A stretch of DNA of 64,000 nucleotides from TPA_inf: Saccharomyces (taxonomy: Eukaryota): the NCBI GenBank assembly GCA_000146045.2, contig BK006936.2, positions 384,001-448,000 of the forward strand, written 5' to 3'. The stretch's first letter is position 1. The number at the start of each line of letters is the position of its first letter. The notes under the pieces are model-generated. The model was not told the origin of the DNA. It did no database searches and saw only the letters and a list, made by a program, of their open reading frames with translations. This document shows, in pieces, positions 40,990-45,101 of this stretch. Both the position numbers and the translations under genes were made by a program.

Positions 40990-41766
40990 TTATTCTTCGT
41001 CATTAAATTTAGGAGCCAAGAAAAACTGTAGGAACCCACTCTTCAAATCAAATTGGAATAAAGCAGGAGCTTCGCTGGAGAGCCTGATACCAACTCTATC
41101 AGAAAGGGAGGAGCCCTTAATGATGTCCAATAAATATTTAGCTCCGAACGTCAAGTCGACAGGTTGATCCATTTCAAGTTTGATGCTTGTTTCAGGATGT
41201 TCCATATCCACGAATGGTTTTATTATGACTGAACCTGATCCGATATCACCGTCAGCTACAAACTTTATTGTTTCTTTGGTGATCATGATATTAATAGAAT
41301 CACTCAATTGGGACAAGTCACGAACAATTTTAGAGAATTCGGAAGATGGCAATGACAGGGTGGAGTCGTACTGTAATTCTTCAATCTTTAAGAAATCAGC
41401 ATCGATATCCATCAATTTCAGAGAGTATTCGGCTATACGGTCTTTCTTGGTATCCTCAAATAATAAGATGATGGAATCCGGTGTGTTGTCAGCAATTAGT
41501 GTTAATGTATCGGTGTTGTTACCACAACGTAGGATTTTACTTAGTGAGGTTAGATCCATACCTAACGTAACAGGATGGTCACATCTATATTCTTGGAAGG
41601 CTTCGACACCTATTTCCAAGGAGACCAATAGAACTCTTGAGTCATCGACAGCTTGTGCAATGATACCATCTTCTTTACATTGGAAATTGACCAACTGGAC
41701 ACAATCTTTGAAACCATCAATTATTCTCTTGAAAAGGGATGCTTCTTCAAATTTTGCTTCTAACAT
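40990..41766 (-). CDS. POL30: PCNA sliding clamp, 258 aa
   Basis: MLEAKFEEASLFKRIIDGFKDCVQLVNFQCKEDGIIAQAVDDSRVLLVSLEIG... is unmistakably PCNA. ATG at 41766. Confidence 0.95.
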   Translation of the reverse strand: MLEAKFEEASLFKRIIDGFKDCVQLVNFQCKEDGIIAQAVDDSRVLLVSLEIGVEAFQEYRCDHPVTLGMDLTSLSKILRCGNNTDTLTLIADNTPDSIILLFEDTKKDRIAEYSLKLMDIDADFLKIEELQYDSTLSLPSSEFSKIVRDLSQLSDSINIMITKETIKFVADGDIGSGSVIIKPFVDMEHPETSIKLEMDQPVDLTFGAKYLLDIIKGSSLSDRVGIRLSSEAPALFQFDLKSGFLQFFLAPKFNDEE

Positions 41767-41955
41767 TTTTTCTCTCTTTTGACTGCGTACTTAGTGCTTG
41801 CTGCTTGTTGCTGTGAGTGAAAAAGGACGGCGAAAGTGAAAGGTGCAAGTGGAAAGAAAGGAAGGCTAAAGCAAAAGTGTTTCTTATATATAATTTTATG
41901 TACCAGAGGAAGCAAAGTACGAAAACTATCAGTTGAAATCCAAAAAAAAAAAGTT

Positions 41956-41961: not shown

Positions 41962-42189
41962 TTCGCGTTTTGGTGCGTCGGATGGAGAAGAAAAATGCTA
42001 AATAATTAGATATTGAAGAATCAGCATAAGTTGTGCGAAAAAGGAAGAGAATACATAAAAGAAAAGAAGGATATATAAGTAAAATAATGATAATAGTAAT
42101 AATAATAACACATAATGCAACCTACTCAACTTCTTTCTGAAGTTTCAAAAGTACGTTGTATGGGAGGTAGAGAACATTGAGTTGTTAGA

Positions 42190-42489
42190 TCAAGCACGTG
42201 TAGCATTGTACAATTCCTTTTCAGATTCGTATCTCTTCTTGTCTGCTTGAGCCTTAGATTCATAGGGTTGCTTTTCTTCAGCAGTTAAGGCCTTCCACCT
42301 CTCACCCAATATTCTGCCTACTTGGCCAAAAGTTACGTCAGGATTCTCGGAACGGACAATGTCTCTGTTTTCATTAGCAAAGAACATATAAGCTGACAAG
42401 CCCCTCTTAGGGGCGTTAGGATCCTTCTTTCTCCTGGTGGTCCTCTTCTTTGGTTCCTTTGGTTGCTTTGCTTCTTTAGTTGCGGCCAT
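42190..42489 (-). CDS. NHP6B: HMGB-family chromatin protein, 99 aa
   Basis: [50 protein letters not shown]... is a single HMG box. NHP6B is the 99-aa paralogue (YBR089C-A). Confidence 0.92.
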
Positions 42490-42516
42490 AGCGCTAGTTT
42501 TATATATGTTAATGTT
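42333..42516 (-). CDS. YBR090C: YBR090C exon 2 (overlaps NHP6B CDS in the +1 frame); total spliced product 122 aa
   Basis: Branchpoint TACTAAC at 42535..42529, 3' splice site TTAG ending at 42517. Exon 2 reads [61 protein letters not shown] then stop. The spliced ORF is 61+61 = 122 aa, matching the length I recall for YBR090C. Confidence 0.7.
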
Positions 42517-42873
42517 CTAAGTTAATTAGTTAGTACTCTTGTCGTGCGCTATGATAAACAAAGGAAGGGGGTGCACAGAACAGCAGTCCTTTAGAGGATA
42601 CTACAGTAGAAAGCTAGAGTCCTGACTTACAACTTGAGCATGCCGTTATGGGCGGCTATTTCATTTCACCTGAACCGTATTAAAATATCATCTTCCTTGC
42701 TGCTACAACCTTCATTGTAGCCGGTTTATAAGATTACCATCATTGTCTACCCCTCTTTAACTTCTCCCGAAAAGCAGAGTTGCCCTTAGCTGTATCCTGT
42801 TCTAGCTGTGCTAAACTGTACGTTCTTATTAAGCCCATCCTCGTCCGCTGGGCTCACCCAGCGCCTTACATAC

Positions 42874-43058
42874 TTTGCGAAAAAGTCGTTTTTCTGCTTG
42901 GTGTTAGGAGCTGTCTCCCATAGTGTAAACTCCCAGTATTGCCTCAACCTCACTTGCTGTACTTTATAGTTGCCGCGCCACCTAAAAAAAAAAACAAAAA
43001 AGACACCACCTAAAAAAACGGGTGAGGGGAATGCACGTGACCCAGGTGCGGGTACCAT
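42874..43058 (-). CDS. YBR090C: YBR090C exon 1 (61 codons + 2 nt)
   Basis: ATG at 43058; ORF MVPAPGSRAFPSPVFLGG...NDFFA then AA|GTATGT with GTATGT at 42873..42868. Confidence 0.75.
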
Positions 43059-43154
43059 ATAAATGTACTTCTAAAATTGTCTACACAGCTTATAATGCTA
43101 TATATGCAGGTTACTATTATATACAAACAGCACAGACAGTCCTCATATTTACAG

Positions 43155-43484
43155 CTATTTTTTGGAATCATCAGCTATTTCTTTGGCCACAAATCGCGAA
43201 TAATGTCGTAGCTGATTCTCTGGCCCGAAACCTCGTGTTTGTACAAATCCTCCAATGAGGCGATTGCTGTAATGCATCTTTGCCACACATCTGTCTATGC
43301 AGCATTGCTCACCTTTCGTTAGATCAGGCTCACCAAAGCCCTCATGCGGAATACATTTCTCAAGACACGTACTGAGAATATTGTTGAAAGTCGAGCACAT
43401 CGCATCGAATTGCACTCCTGCAACGTCTAGCTTCTCTTGCGAGACCTCCTGGTTGCCCCTTAGACTATTTAAAAAGAACGACAT
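43155..43484 (-). CDS. TIM12: Small Tim (TIM22-associated) of the mitochondrial intermembrane space, 109 aa
   Basis: 109 aa with twin Cx3C motifs (CSTFNNILSTC...CCIDRC) typical of small Tims (YBR091C). Confidence 0.88.
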   Translation of the reverse strand: MSFFLNSLRGNQEVSQEKLDVAGVQFDAMCSTFNNILSTCLEKCIPHEGFGEPDLTKGEQCCIDRCVAKMHYSNRLIGGFVQTRGFGPENQLRHYSRFVAKEIADDSKK

Positions 43485-43697
43485 CCTTTTCTTGGTGCAC
43501 TTTAATATTATACGGGAGCTCCGATATCTATTTCAGCAATATAGACTACAATCAACTTTGCTGTTCTTACTTTTTAGTTAACTTTTTTCTTTTCATTCTG
43601 CCGCTAATCTACAAACTCGTTACCCTACTAGTACATAAAAGAAGATCAGAATCGATGGGTATTTATTTATATTTGCAATATTATTTATTTATACAAT

Positions 43698-45101
43698 TTA
43701 TTGTTTTAATAGGGTATCGTTGTAGTGAGTAGTATTCCAGTCCCAGTAGAAGGTCAATTCGGTGACGTTACTGACACTGCTGACGTTACAGACCTTTAGG
43801 AAGTCAGTACCAGCTACTCTCTTTTCAGCATAGTCGTAGAAATCATTGATTTCACAAGAGAACCCTGGGCCGGTGGAACAGGTTTCAATTGGAACGACAG
43901 CATCGTTAATGACGTATCTGACGTAGGTGTCGTTAGAACATTGGAATTTTTCGGTGTAGACACGAGCACCTTGAGGAACGTACCAGGACTTATGGAAGGT
44001 GTTGCCCATGAATGGAACGTATTCGGCAGTTAAGTTGTTTTTGTCGTCAATTATACCAGCGGTGGTCAAATAGTTTAGGATATCGGTATCGTGGGTAAAA
44101 CTCAACCAGACTTTTAAGTCTTGAGTTTCACTTTGCTTTAACAACTTCAAAGTAGCGTTAAACAAGTTGGCACCGACGGATCTGATCATATCATAACCTG
44201 GTCCATCCTGGTAAAACGATACCAGGTCCTGGCCGTATGAGTAACGTACCAATTCATCTTCGGTGAAGATATCACAAACATCACTGTAGCCTCTAGCGTT
44301 CAATTCGTATGCACACCATGCAAACAAAGTGTTGGCGTCCTTTGAGGTCAAATTCAAACCCTTGTTTTCTTTGTTTAATCTCTTGGCAATGTCATCCAAG
44401 TATGTGGTATCGTATTTGTCCAAAATGTCATCGTTAGCATCTTCATCCCATCCTGGGCACGCATTACCAGCACTCAAAGTGTTTGCGCCGGCGGACATGG
44501 CTTCACTGACAGTCTGCAAGGAGATGTTGAATTGGTCACCTAAACCATCAATGAAATATTGAGCAGTGTCATGAACCCTTTCAGAACTAGCGGCGAAAAT
44601 TGGGAAACTGGTTTGATTTTCGAACATGTAGCCATATTGCGCTAAAAACTCACGAGCATGTCTCTTAGCATCCATCTCACCAGTGTATGGATTCAAAACA
44701 TTGTCTGAGTTGGCAAAAGTGGTTTCCATTTCCAAATCATCGTCATCACGGATGAAAAACTCGTAATCATCGTTCAAGAATGACAATGAGCCGTTGAATT
44801 GACGTGTGTAATTGCTCAACTTATACCATGTTTTCATGATGGTAGCACCTTTACTGTAAGTTGGGTATCTTTCACCATGTCTGGCAAGCATTTGCAATTG
44901 TTTCATTTCACAACCTTCAGGCAAGTCACGAGAAATACCATAGTCGCCAGGGAAAGAGAAGTATGGCCCGGCACCACCCAGGAATGGGAATATGTCTTCC
45001 TGAGTGCCAATTTTGGCAACATCGGCTAACTCTCCGAGGGGAATTGTACCTGCATTAACTAAAGCAGCGGCTAGAACCGAATAAACAACAGACTTAAACA
45101 T
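43698..45101 (-). CDS. PHO3: Constitutive (thiamine-repressible) secreted acid phosphatase, 467 aa
   Basis: Signal peptide MFKSVVYSVLAAALVNA and the histidine acid phosphatase motif (LARHGERYP). It is the downstream copy of the tandem pair, ~87% identical to PHO5 (YBR092C). Confidence 0.9.
   Translation of the reverse strand: MFKSVVYSVLAAALVNAGTIPLGELADVAKIGTQEDIFPFLGGAGPYFSFPGDYGISRDLPEGCEMKQLQMLARHGERYPTYSKGATIMKTWYKLSNYTRQFNGSLSFLNDDYEFFIRDDDDLEMETTFANSDNVLNPYTGEMDAKRHAREFLAQYGYMFENQTSFPIFAASSERVHDTAQYFIDGLGDQFNISLQTVSEAMSAGANTLSAGNACPGWDEDANDDILDKYDTTYLDDIAKRLNKENKGLNLTSKDANTLFAWCAYELNARGYSDVCDIFTEDELVRYSYGQDLVSFYQDGPGYDMIRSVGANLFNATLKLLKQSETQDLKVWLSFTHDTDILNYLTTAGIIDDKNNLTAEYVPFMGNTFHKSWYVPQGARVYTEKFQCSNDTYVRYVINDAVVPIETCSTGPGFSCEINDFYDYAEKRVAGTDFLKVCNVSSVSNVTELTFYWDWNTTHYNDTLLKQ

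What the first reader, a model, noticed from the sequence alone, without database searches (positions are those of the whole stretch)
42333..43058. YBR090C is a spliced ORF whose second exon overlaps the NHP6B coding sequence out of frame
The evidence has four parts:
- the YBR090C ATG-initiated ORF (43058) has a perfect 5' splice site AA|GTATGT at 42873;
- a perfect TACTAAC branchpoint lies at 42535..42529, only ~45 nt upstream of the NHP6B ATG (42489);
- splicing to the TTAG at 42517 gives a 122-aa product whose last 52 codons run through the NHP6B CDS in the +1 frame;
- the alternative CTAG 8 nt before the NHP6B ATG would instead fuse YBR090C in frame to NHP6B.
The geometry suggests YBR090C and NHP6B are one transcription unit. 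The intron then looks like the NHP6B 5'-UTR intron, and YBR090C behaves as a long overlapping upstream ORF that would have to be bypassed by leaky scanning or by a downstream start within the intron to make Nhp6B. That is a potential translational control point for an abundant chromatin protein.
Basis: partly seen in the sequence, partly recalled or inferred. Interest (0 to 1): 0.6.

Follow-up and report, generated by a model that had tools for sequence, protein, structure and literature searches.

The report
NHP6B 5'-UTR intron; YBR090C spurious
The splice signals are real, but they belong to the already documented intron in the untranslated leader of the yeast chromatin gene NHP6B. The "YBR090C" reading frame drawn across it is a baker's-yeast-only accident that starts in the NHP6B promoter, upstream of where the mRNA begins, so it is not an upstream ORF controlling Nhp6B.

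Summary
The window is S. cerevisiae chrII (window coordinate + 384000). Every sequence fact in the finding checks out:
- GTATGT 5' splice site at 42873.
- TACTAAC branchpoint at 42535-42529.
- TTAG 3' splice site at 42517.
- A 122-aa spliced ORF that overlaps NHP6B by 157 nt, out of frame.
- A CTAG whose use would fuse the ORF in frame to NHP6B.

This is the existing annotation, not a new result. The intron is published as the NHP6B 5'-UTR intron (chrII 426873..426517). A 2025 preprint already calls YBR090C a dubious gene containing a real, conserved NHP6B leader intron.

My own comparisons agree:
- The splice signals are kept in S. paradoxus, S. mikatae, S. kudriavzevii, A. gossypii, L. thermotolerans and N. 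castellii.
- No ATG-started ORF reads into the 5' splice site in any sister species.
- In the overlap, 27 of 31 variable sites fall on NHP6B codon position 3.

Published TSS-seq puts the NHP6B start cluster at window 42912-42775, 146 nt downstream of the YBR090C ATG (43058), with no sense cluster further upstream before TIM12's own. "Exon 1" is the NHP6B promoter: a Reb1-like site, an E-box, T-tracts and TATAAAG. The spliced leader is at most 66 nt and has no AUG. Verdict: already known, low interest.

The parts
42190..42489 (-). NHP6B (YBR089C-A) coding sequence, 99 aa HMG-box protein
   Evidence: ORF list and translation. Orthologs with HMG_box Pfam domains sit in a syntenic TIM12-NHP6-POL30 context in 7 species.
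42490..42516 (-). 27-nt untranslated leader of NHP6B in exon 2, with no AUG
42517..42873 (-). 357-nt spliceosomal intron, the NHP6B 5'-UTR intron. It is the same intron that is annotated inside YBR090C.
   Evidence: Sequence. Listed as chrII 426873..426517 in PMC3226532 Table 1. Junction reads in PMC3983031. Conserved across Saccharomycetaceae (PMC12157680). No Rfam family lies in it.
42868..42873 (-). 5' splice site GTATGT
   Evidence: Invariant in S. cerevisiae, S. paradoxus, S. mikatae and S. kudriavzevii. GTATGT is also present upstream of NHP6 in A. gossypii, L. thermotolerans and N. castellii.
42529..42535 (-). Branchpoint TACTAAC, with the branch A 13 nt from the 3' splice site
   Evidence: It is CACTAAC in A. 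gossypii.
42517..42519 (-). 3' splice site TAG
   Evidence: Invariant in the sensu stricto alignment. A TAG/CAG polymorphism within S. cerevisiae is noted in PMC2839277.
42874..42912 (-). Non-coding first exon of NHP6B mRNA, at most 39 nt. Its 5' limit is the upstream edge of the mapped TSS cluster.
   Evidence: TSS cluster chrII 426775-426912, about 2000 reads in wild type (PMC4434318 suppl. file 1). Four-species identity is 90%. No ATG.
42962..42968 (-). TATAAAG, the likely NHP6B TATA box, 56 nt upstream of the TSS cluster edge
   Evidence: Sits inside the invariant block GGTGGCGCGGC[A/G]ACTATAAAG. Its role as a TATA box is inferred from position and consensus.
42984..43055 (-). Promoter-type elements inside YBR090C 'exon 1': Reb1-like GTACCCG (43055-43049; TTACCCG in the sister species), E-box TCACGTG (43040-43034), and T-tracts (43018-12, 43001-42996, 42994-84)
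   Evidence: The motifs are conserved, while the T-tract lengths differ by indels that are not multiples of 3. Factor binding is inferred from consensus motifs and was not tested.
42333..43058 (-). Annotated spliced ORF YBR090C (122 aa). It is open only in S. cerevisiae and is best read as non-coding.
   Evidence: Protein search finds S. cerevisiae entries only. No ATG ORF reads into the 5' splice site in S. paradoxus, S. mikatae or S. kudriavzevii. In-frame stops occur in the orthologs, and 27 of 31 variable overlap sites are YBR090C codon position 2. The ATG lies upstream of the mapped TSSs.
42494..42497 (-). Alternative CTAG that would fuse exon 1 in frame to NHP6B; no evidence that it is used
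   Evidence: It is CGAG in S. paradoxus, CTAG in S. mikatae and CCAC in S. kudriavzevii. No such junction appears in PMC3983031.
42904..42921 (-). 5-codon mini-ORF ATGGGAGACAGCTCCTAA, whose ATG lies 9 nt upstream of the TSS cluster edge
   Evidence: The ATG is kept in all four species, but the stop is lost in S. kudriavzevii. It probably lies outside most mRNAs.
42435..42495 (-). Minor internal TSS cluster around the NHP6B ATG, about 6-7% of the reads of the main cluster
   Evidence: PMC4434318 suppl. file 1, cluster chrII 426435-426495, 135 reads in wild type.

Best explanation
The TIM12-NHP6B intergenic region holds one gene, NHP6B. Reading 5' to 3' on the minus strand, it is laid out as follows:
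- The TIM12 3' end region (43154 to about 43060), which is poorly conserved.
- The NHP6B promoter (about 43058-42913): a Reb1-like site, an E-box, T-tracts and TATAAAG.
- A short non-coding first exon (at most 42912..42874).
- A 357-nt canonical intron (42873..42517).
- A 27-nt leader, then the NHP6B ATG (42489).

Splicing produces a leader of about 66 nt with no AUG, so Nhp6B is made by ordinary cap-dependent scanning. Unspliced pre-mRNA carries 8 intronic AUGs and is cleared by nonsense-mediated decay.

YBR090C is an annotation artefact. In S. cerevisiae alone, an ATG overlapping the Reb1-like promoter site happens to open a frame that stays open to the 5' splice site and, after the intron is removed, runs +1 through the first 51 NHP6B codons.

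Shown directly: the sequence anatomy, the conservation pattern, and the published TSS, junction and NMD data. Inferred: which factors bind the promoter motifs, and the complete absence of translation in the YBR090C frame.
For: 1. The intron is published as the NHP6B 5'-UTR intron with the same coordinates. It is spliced in RNA-seq. The NHP6B pre-mRNA is a validated NMD substrate.
2. The intron signals are conserved in S. paradoxus, S. mikatae, S. kudriavzevii, A. gossypii, L. thermotolerans and N. castellii, all at syntenic TIM12-NHP6-POL30 loci. The paralog NHP6A has none.
3. The YBR090C ORF is not conserved. The ATG becomes GTG or CTG. Orthologs carry 2-3 in-frame stops and indels that are not multiples of 3. 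No ATG ORF reaches the 5' splice site in the three sister species. The protein search returns only S. cerevisiae entries.
4. In the overlap, 27 of 31 variable sites are NHP6B codon position 3, which is YBR090C position 2.
5. The TSS cluster lies at window 42912-42775 with about 2000 reads. No sense cluster lies between it and TIM12's TSS. A divergent antisense XUT starts at window 43129-43157, so the ATG at 43058 sits between divergent start sites.
6. The invariant TATAAAG lies 56 nt upstream of the TSS edge. The spliced leader has 0 ATG.
7. PMC12157680 reaches the same conclusion independently.
Against: - Only one TSS dataset could be read (rich-medium cultures of wild type, upf1, rrp6 and set2 mutants), and only cluster bounds are given, not the peak position.
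- The cluster extends about 100 nt into the intron, so some transcripts start downstream of the 5' splice site.
- Rare or condition-specific upstream starts, or TIM12 read-through, cannot be excluded.
- From my own recollection of the SGD entry (not checked here), a YBR090C-GFP fusion was scored as cytoplasmic and nuclear. That would imply some translation in that frame in the tagged strain.
- No ribosome-profiling data could be examined.
Confidence: 0.9

Rival explanations
1. One reading: NHP6B mRNAs start upstream of 43058, and YBR090C acts as a long overlapping uORF. Ribosomes would have to skip it by leaky scanning, giving translational control of Nhp6B.
For: The ORF geometry is real. A supplementary table flags NHP6B as 'has uORF' (PMC4434318 file 4). 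That table takes 426873, the intron's 5' end, as the gene start, so the flag probably reflects intronic ATGs in unspliced sequence.
Against: - No TSS cluster lies upstream of 42912 until TIM12's own.
- The ATG is not conserved and the ORF is closed in sister species.
- The main TSS cluster is insensitive to upf1 deletion (log2 0.32, p = 0.43), unlike what is expected for an mRNA with a 122-codon overlapping uORF.
- Nhp6B is an abundant protein (general knowledge).
Confidence: 0.03
2. YBR090C is a genuine, very young (S. cerevisiae-specific, de novo) protein. It would be translated at a low level from rare upstream-initiated or TIM12 read-through transcripts that use the NHP6B intron.
For: The ORF is intact in S. 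cerevisiae entries, apart from small in-frame variants such as P0001 and P0006. A GFP-fusion localisation is recorded in SGD (my recollection, not checked here).
Against: - There is no sign of selection on the frame: 27 of 31 overlap substitutions are at its codon position 2.
- The product is low-complexity, with F-rich and basic stretches arising from T-tracts and frame-shifted lysine codons.
- No transcript start is mapped upstream of the ATG.
- PMC12157680 proposes that it be made 'dubious'.
Confidence: 0.05
3. Use of the downstream CTAG (42497-42494) yields an N-terminally extended Nhp6B isoform of 162 aa.
For: The fusion is in frame. Some automated annotations of other S. cerevisiae assemblies predict exactly this protein, for example P0002 from CEN.PK113-7D.
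Against: - No junction to that AG was reported. The only alternative events seen were two alternative 5' splice sites, GTAAGT and GCATGC.
- The AG is absent in S. kudriavzevii.
- This isoform would also need the ATG at 43058, which lies upstream of the mapped TSSs.
- The first AG after the branchpoint, 13 nt away, is the conserved one.
Confidence: 0.01

Closest known systems
Annotated NHP6B (YBR089C-A) 5'-UTR intron of S. cerevisiae, chrII 426873..426517
   Same: Identical: same coordinates after the 384000 offset, same GTATGT/TACTAAC/TAG signals, and the same transcription unit.
   Different: Nothing. This is that feature.
YBR090C as discussed in 'Core gene set of the species Saccharomyces cerevisiae' (PMC12157680): a proposed dubious gene containing a real intron
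   Same: Same conclusion as reached here. [quoted passage not shown] The intron is shared with A. gossypii ADL310W (reproduced).
   Different: This analysis adds three things: the TSS argument (the ATG lies upstream of the mapped mRNA starts), the promoter-motif reading of 'exon 1', and the codon-position test in the overlap.
Other yeast 5'-UTR introns (RPS8A and RPS8B, RPL32, MTR2, COX4, ARF2 and others; 24 genes in PMC3226532 Table 1)
   Same: A short non-coding first exon, canonical signals, and a 3' splice site a few to a few dozen nt upstream of the start codon. Unspliced pre-mRNA is an NMD substrate, as for MTR2.
   Different: Here a chance ORF spanning the promoter, exon 1 and exon 2 was given a systematic gene name.
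Regulatory overlapping uORFs and long undecoded transcript isoforms (e.g. GCN4 uORFs, NDC80-LUTI)
   Same: Only the formal geometry: an upstream ATG whose frame ends inside the main CDS.
   Different: The upstream ATG is not in the mapped mRNA, is not conserved, and the mRNA shows no NMD response. It is neither a member of this class nor a functional analogue on present evidence.

Membership tests
Yeast spliceosomal 5'-UTR intron | Consensus 5' splice site GTATGT | tested here: met
   42873-42868. Invariant in 4 Saccharomyces species.
Yeast spliceosomal 5'-UTR intron | TACTAAC branchpoint followed by a YAG 3' splice site within about 10-60 nt | tested here: met
   TACTAAC at 42535-42529. The TAG ends at 42517, 13 nt from the branch A. 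Conserved.
Yeast spliceosomal 5'-UTR intron | Spliced junction observed in RNA | tested here: met
   Taken from published data, not from raw reads. GTATGT-TAG junction reads for YBR089C-A appear in PMC3983031 suppl. file 6, and PMC12157680 reports splicing in SRR488142.
Yeast spliceosomal 5'-UTR intron | Transcription starts upstream of the 5' splice site, and the whole intron lies upstream of the gene's start codon | tested here: met
   The upstream edge of the TSS cluster is at window 42912, 39 nt upstream of the 5' splice site. The 3' splice site is 27 nt upstream of the NHP6B ATG. Caveat: the cluster extends into the intron, and the peak position was not available.
Yeast spliceosomal 5'-UTR intron | Positional conservation in orthologs | tested here: met
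   Signals are present upstream of syntenic NHP6 genes in 6 other species and absent from the paralog NHP6A.
Protein-coding gene (YBR090C) | ORF and start codon conserved in closely related species | tested here: not met
   The ATG becomes GTG in S. mikatae and CTG in S. kudriavzevii. Orthologs have 2-3 in-frame stops. No ATG ORF enters the 5' splice site in S. paradoxus, S. mikatae or S. kudriavzevii.
Protein-coding gene (YBR090C) | Substitution pattern showing purifying selection on its frame | tested here: not met
   27 of 31 variable sites in the overlap are at YBR090C codon position 2, which is NHP6B position 3. Exon 1 has indels that are not multiples of 3.
Protein-coding gene (YBR090C) | Homologs outside the species, or a known domain | tested here: not met
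   Only S. cerevisiae entries were found among 5.8 billion clusters. No Pfam domain appears except where the entry is fused to NHP6B.
Protein-coding gene (YBR090C) | Start codon contained in a mapped transcript | tested here: not met
   No minus-strand TSS cluster lies between 426912 and TIM12's at 427493-427549. One dataset only.
Protein-coding gene (YBR090C) | Direct evidence of the protein (footprints in frame, peptides) | not testable with these tools
   No ribosome-profiling or proteomics data were accessible. The GFP-fusion note in SGD is from memory only.
Regulatory overlapping uORF | uAUG present in the mature mRNA leader | tested here: not met
   The spliced leader starting at 42912 is 66 nt with 0 ATG. 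ATG 43058 lies 146 nt upstream of the TSS edge.
Regulatory overlapping uORF | Conservation of the uAUG or uORF | tested here: not met
Regulatory overlapping uORF | NMD sensitivity or translational repression of the main ORF | tested here: inconclusive
   Main TSS cluster: wild type 2005 versus upf1 2521 reads, log2 0.32, p = 0.43. Only the unspliced pre-mRNA is an NMD target. Translation was not measured.

The most novel reading that the evidence does not exclude
Under conditions not sampled by the TSS data (for example meiosis, starvation, or TIM12 terminator read-through past the weakened Reb1-like site GTACCCG), a longer NHP6B isoform could start upstream of 43058. In that isoform the S. 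cerevisiae-specific 122-codon ORF would capture ribosomes and silence Nhp6B, giving a lineage-specific, LUTI-like switch and/or a de novo protein.
Probability: 0.04. Interest if true: 0.4.

Novelty: already known. Interest (0 to 1): 0.07.

Why it matters
The practical value is in annotation and strain interpretation.
- YBR090C should be treated as non-coding, with its intron credited to NHP6B.
- Because the YBR090C annotation spans the NHP6B promoter, leader intron and first 51 codons, a ybr090c deletion or C-terminal tag would be expected to disrupt NHP6B. Phenotypes assigned to YBR090C should be read with that in mind.
- Automated pipelines that fuse 'exon 1' to NHP6B produce spurious N-terminally extended Nhp6B models.
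- No new regulatory principle emerges.

Tried and rejected
- Second and third TSS or leader datasets: the supplements of Arribere & Gilbert 2013 and Park 2014 are not held as text. The Waern & Snyder 2013 supplements hold only GO lists for these genes.
- The Morgan 2019 stable-intron paper is not held. I therefore could not check whether the short 13-nt distance from branchpoint to 3' splice site puts this intron among the stationary-phase stable introns.
- The supplementary Figure S13 of PMC12157680 is not held.
- An Rfam scan of 42100-43200 found only a sub-threshold U4 hit (15.9 bits against a gathering score of 46). There is no snoRNA or other known RNA in the intron.
- RNAalifold on four Saccharomyces introns gave a weak covariation term (-1.69 kcal/mol). 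Four close species are too few, so I claim no structure.
- I considered and rejected the in-frame CTAG fusion, the uORF model and the de novo protein model; see the rival explanations.
- The 'has uORF' flag in Malabat file 4 was set aside because that table starts the gene at the intron's 5' end.

Full report
**Identity of the region.** The window is S. cerevisiae chromosome II, with window coordinate + 384000 = chrII coordinate. On the minus strand lie POL30 (40990-41766), NHP6B (42190-42489), TIM12 (43155-43484) and PHO3 (43698-45101). The finding's span 42333-43058 equals chrII 426333-427058. From my own knowledge, this is the annotated extent of the spliced ORF YBR090C. The published NHP6B 5'-UTR intron, chrII 426873..426517 (PMC3226532 Table 1), maps exactly to window 42873..42517.

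**Check of the observation.**
- Exon 1 is 43058..42874 (185 nt).
- The intron is 357 nt and begins GTATGT.
- TACTAAC lies at 42535-42529, with the branch A 13 nt from the TTAG 3' splice site (G at 42517).
- Exon 2 is 42516..42333.
- The spliced product is 122 aa.
- The ORF overlaps the NHP6B CDS by 157 nt, with the YBR090C frame +1 relative to NHP6B.
- Splicing to the next AG (CTAG, 42497-42494) would fuse exon 1 in frame to NHP6B.

The only correction is that the overlap holds about 51 sense codons plus the stop. The signals are functional rather than fortuitous. GTATGT-TAG junction reads are tabulated for YBR089C-A in PMC3983031. PMC12157680 reports that the intron is spliced in RNA-seq. PMC5393182 validated the intron-containing NHP6B pre-mRNA as an NMD substrate by Northern blot.

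[quoted passage not shown] It also says the intron is shared with the A. gossypii ortholog ADL310W. The 'one transcription unit / NHP6B 5'-UTR intron' part of the finding is therefore correct and known.

**Independent comparative test.** I retrieved NHP6B loci from six other species:
- S. kudriavzevii (L001, L002), S. paradoxus (L008) and S. mikatae (L010).
- NHP6 loci from A. gossypii (L011), L. thermotolerans (L012) and N. castellii (L013).

All are syntenic (TIM12-NHP6-POL30), and none has a gene called between TIM12 and NHP6 in the NCBI genome-assembly records. One synthetic-metagenome contig of S. paradoxus (L009) carries an unannotated 60-aa gene call there, which I did not examine. A GTATGT, a (T/C)ACTAAC 21-46 nt before the ATG, and an intervening YAG are present in every species. 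The S. cerevisiae paralog NHP6A (L014) has no such signals in its 305-bp upstream region. The intron is therefore ancestral and was lost from NHP6A.

**The YBR090C ORF is not conserved.**
- Its ATG is ATG only in S. cerevisiae and S. paradoxus. It is GTG in S. mikatae and CTG in S. kudriavzevii.
- Read in register, the orthologous 'exon 1' has 2 in-frame stops in S. paradoxus and 3 each in S. mikatae and S. kudriavzevii. It also has indels of 1, 2, 4 and 6 nt in the T-tracts.
- In none of the three sister species does any ATG-initiated ORF read into the 5' splice site.
- In the 157-nt overlap, 27 of 31 variable sites fall on NHP6B codon position 3, which is YBR090C position 2. Selection therefore acts on the NHP6B frame only.
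- A search of 5.8 billion protein clusters with the 122-aa product returned only S. cerevisiae entries.

**What 'exon 1' really is.** Although it is not coding, 43058-42913 is well conserved: 70-77% of columns are identical in all four species, against 35% for the TIM12-proximal 100 nt and 32% for the middle of the intron. The conserved blocks are promoter-type motifs:
- TTACCCG (Reb1-type core), which is GTACCCG in S. cerevisiae at 43055-43049 and overlaps the YBR090C ATG.
- TCACGTG (Cbf1/Pho4-type E-box) at 43040-43034.
- Three T-tracts of variable length.
- An invariant GGTGGCGCGGC[A/G]ACTATAAAG containing TATAAAG (42968-42962).

The assignment of factors is inferred from consensus sequences (established knowledge) and was not tested.

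**Transcription start sites.** TSS-seq clusters from Malabat et al. 2015 (PMC4434318, supplementary file 1) list four consecutive clusters on the chrII minus strand:

| Cluster | chrII coordinates | Window coordinates | Reads |
|---|---|---|---|
| POL30 | 425788-425878 | 41788-41878 | WT 112 |
| 'Internal' | 426435-426495 | 42435-42495 | WT 135 |
| NHP6B 'mRNA' | 426775-426912 | 42775-42912 | WT 2005, upf1 2521, rrp6 1341, double mutant 1590 |
| TIM12 (next cluster id) | 427493-427549 | 43493-43549 | WT 228 |

- The upstream edge of the NHP6B start cluster is window 42912. That is 56 nt downstream of TATAAAG, within the usual 40-120 nt yeast spacing (general knowledge).
- It is 146 nt downstream of the YBR090C ATG, and 9 nt downstream of the only other exon-1 ATG (42921, a 5-codon mini-ORF).
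- On the plus strand, an antisense XUT starts at 427129-427157 (window 43129-43157). The ATG at 43058 therefore lies between divergent start sites, which is the position expected for a nucleosome-depleted promoter core.
- The spliced leader from 42912 is 66 nt with no ATG. The intron contains 8 ATGs, which explains the NMD sensitivity of the unspliced RNA.
- The main cluster is unchanged in upf1 deletion (log2 0.32, p = 0.43), which argues against a long overlapping uORF on the mature mRNA.
- The 'has uORF' flag for NHP6B in supplementary file 4 uses 426873 as the gene start. It most likely counts intronic ATGs, so I discount it.

**Alternative 3' splice site.** The in-frame CTAG is CGAG in S. 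paradoxus, CTAG in S. mikatae and CCAC (no AG) in S. kudriavzevii. PMC3983031 lists only two alternative events for this intron, both to the normal TAG: a GTAAGT 5' splice site (window 42630-42625; 3, 1, 0, 1 reads) and a GCATGC site (1 read). Sequencing depth there was low, with 12, 2, 5 and 2 reads for the main junction. Some automated annotations of other S. cerevisiae assemblies nevertheless predict fused proteins of 129-187 aa (P0002, P0005, P0007, P0008). These are gene-model artefacts.

**Mechanism.** NHP6B is transcribed from a TATA-containing promoter that occupies YBR090C 'exon 1'. The transcript has a non-coding first exon of at most 39 nt. A canonical intron is removed to give a short AUG-free leader, and Nhp6B is translated by ordinary scanning. 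Unspliced molecules are degraded by NMD. YBR090C is a species-specific chance ORF. I put confidence in this reading at about 0.9. The remaining uncertainty comes from three gaps: only one TSS dataset, with cluster bounds only; no ribosome-profiling or proteomic data; and the GFP-fusion note I recall from SGD.

**Verdict.** Novelty: already known. Interest: low.

Noticed in passing
window 42774-42873 (first 100 nt of the intron): This stretch is about as conserved as the coding sequence: 71% of columns are identical in 4 species, against 32% in the middle of the intron. It also coincides with the downstream part of the published TSS cluster (42912-42775). It includes a possible hairpin CGCTGGG-TGAG-CCCAGCG (42863-42846), whose 3' arm carries an uncompensated G>C change in S. 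mikatae and S. kudriavzevii. The cause is unknown; it could be a downstream promoter or initiation region, or a splicing-related element.
   Followed up: partly
window ~42638-42662 (intron): A conserved intronic block, ATAGCCGCCCATA..GGCATGCT, sits within otherwise divergent intron sequence. RNAalifold pairs GCCG with CGGC locally, with two G-C to G-U changes. No function is known.
   Followed up: no
window 42868-42873 and 42500-42506: The exon-2 leader contains ACATAT (ACATAC in S. paradoxus and S. mikatae), complementary to the 5' splice site GTATGT. RNAalifold pairs the two. It is a 6-mer in four close species, so it may be chance.
   Followed up: no
window 42625-42630: An internal GTAAGT is used at a low level as an alternative 5' splice site to the normal TAG (3, 1, 0, 1 reads in PMC3983031). 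It is conserved in S. paradoxus only.
   Followed up: partly
window 42517-42535: The distance from branchpoint to 3' splice site is short, at 13 nt. In the sister species an even closer AG (TTAG, 8 nt from the branch A) precedes the conserved TTAG. I could not check whether this intron is among the stationary-phase stable introns, because that paper is not held.
   Followed up: no
window 42435-42495: A minor internal TSS cluster straddles the NHP6B ATG, with about 6-7% of the reads of the main cluster. Starts downstream of 42489 would lack the start codon, and the next in-frame ATG is Met35.
   Followed up: no
window 43129-43157 (+ strand) and 42037-42086 (+ strand): Published non-coding antisense start sites. 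XUT_2F-177 starts next to the NHP6B promoter and runs antisense through TIM12 and PHO3. A CUT (CUT_GIM_0092) starts in the NHP6B 3' region, antisense to NHP6B.
   Followed up: no
proteins P0002, P0005, P0007, P0008 (S. cerevisiae assemblies): Automated gene models in other S. cerevisiae genomes fuse parts of YBR090C exon 1 or the intron in frame to NHP6B, giving 129-187 aa 'Nhp6b' proteins. These are probable annotation artefacts now propagating in nr.
   Followed up: partly
L014:1196-1500 (NHP6A upstream) versus window 43012-43028: Both paralog promoters carry TCACCCG followed by a T-run (NHP6B CTCACCCGTTTTTTT; NHP6A ATCACCCGCCTTTT) and GC-rich GCGCG-type motifs. This may be a shared regulatory element.
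   Followed up: no
L001:3001-3309 (S. kudriavzevii NHP6B): S. kudriavzevii Nhp6B is 102 aa against 99 aa in the other species, with 9 gap columns in the four-species CDS alignment. A related 102-aa cluster member (P0137) shows a 3-residue insertion (KQP) in the lysine-rich N-terminal tail.
   Followed up: no
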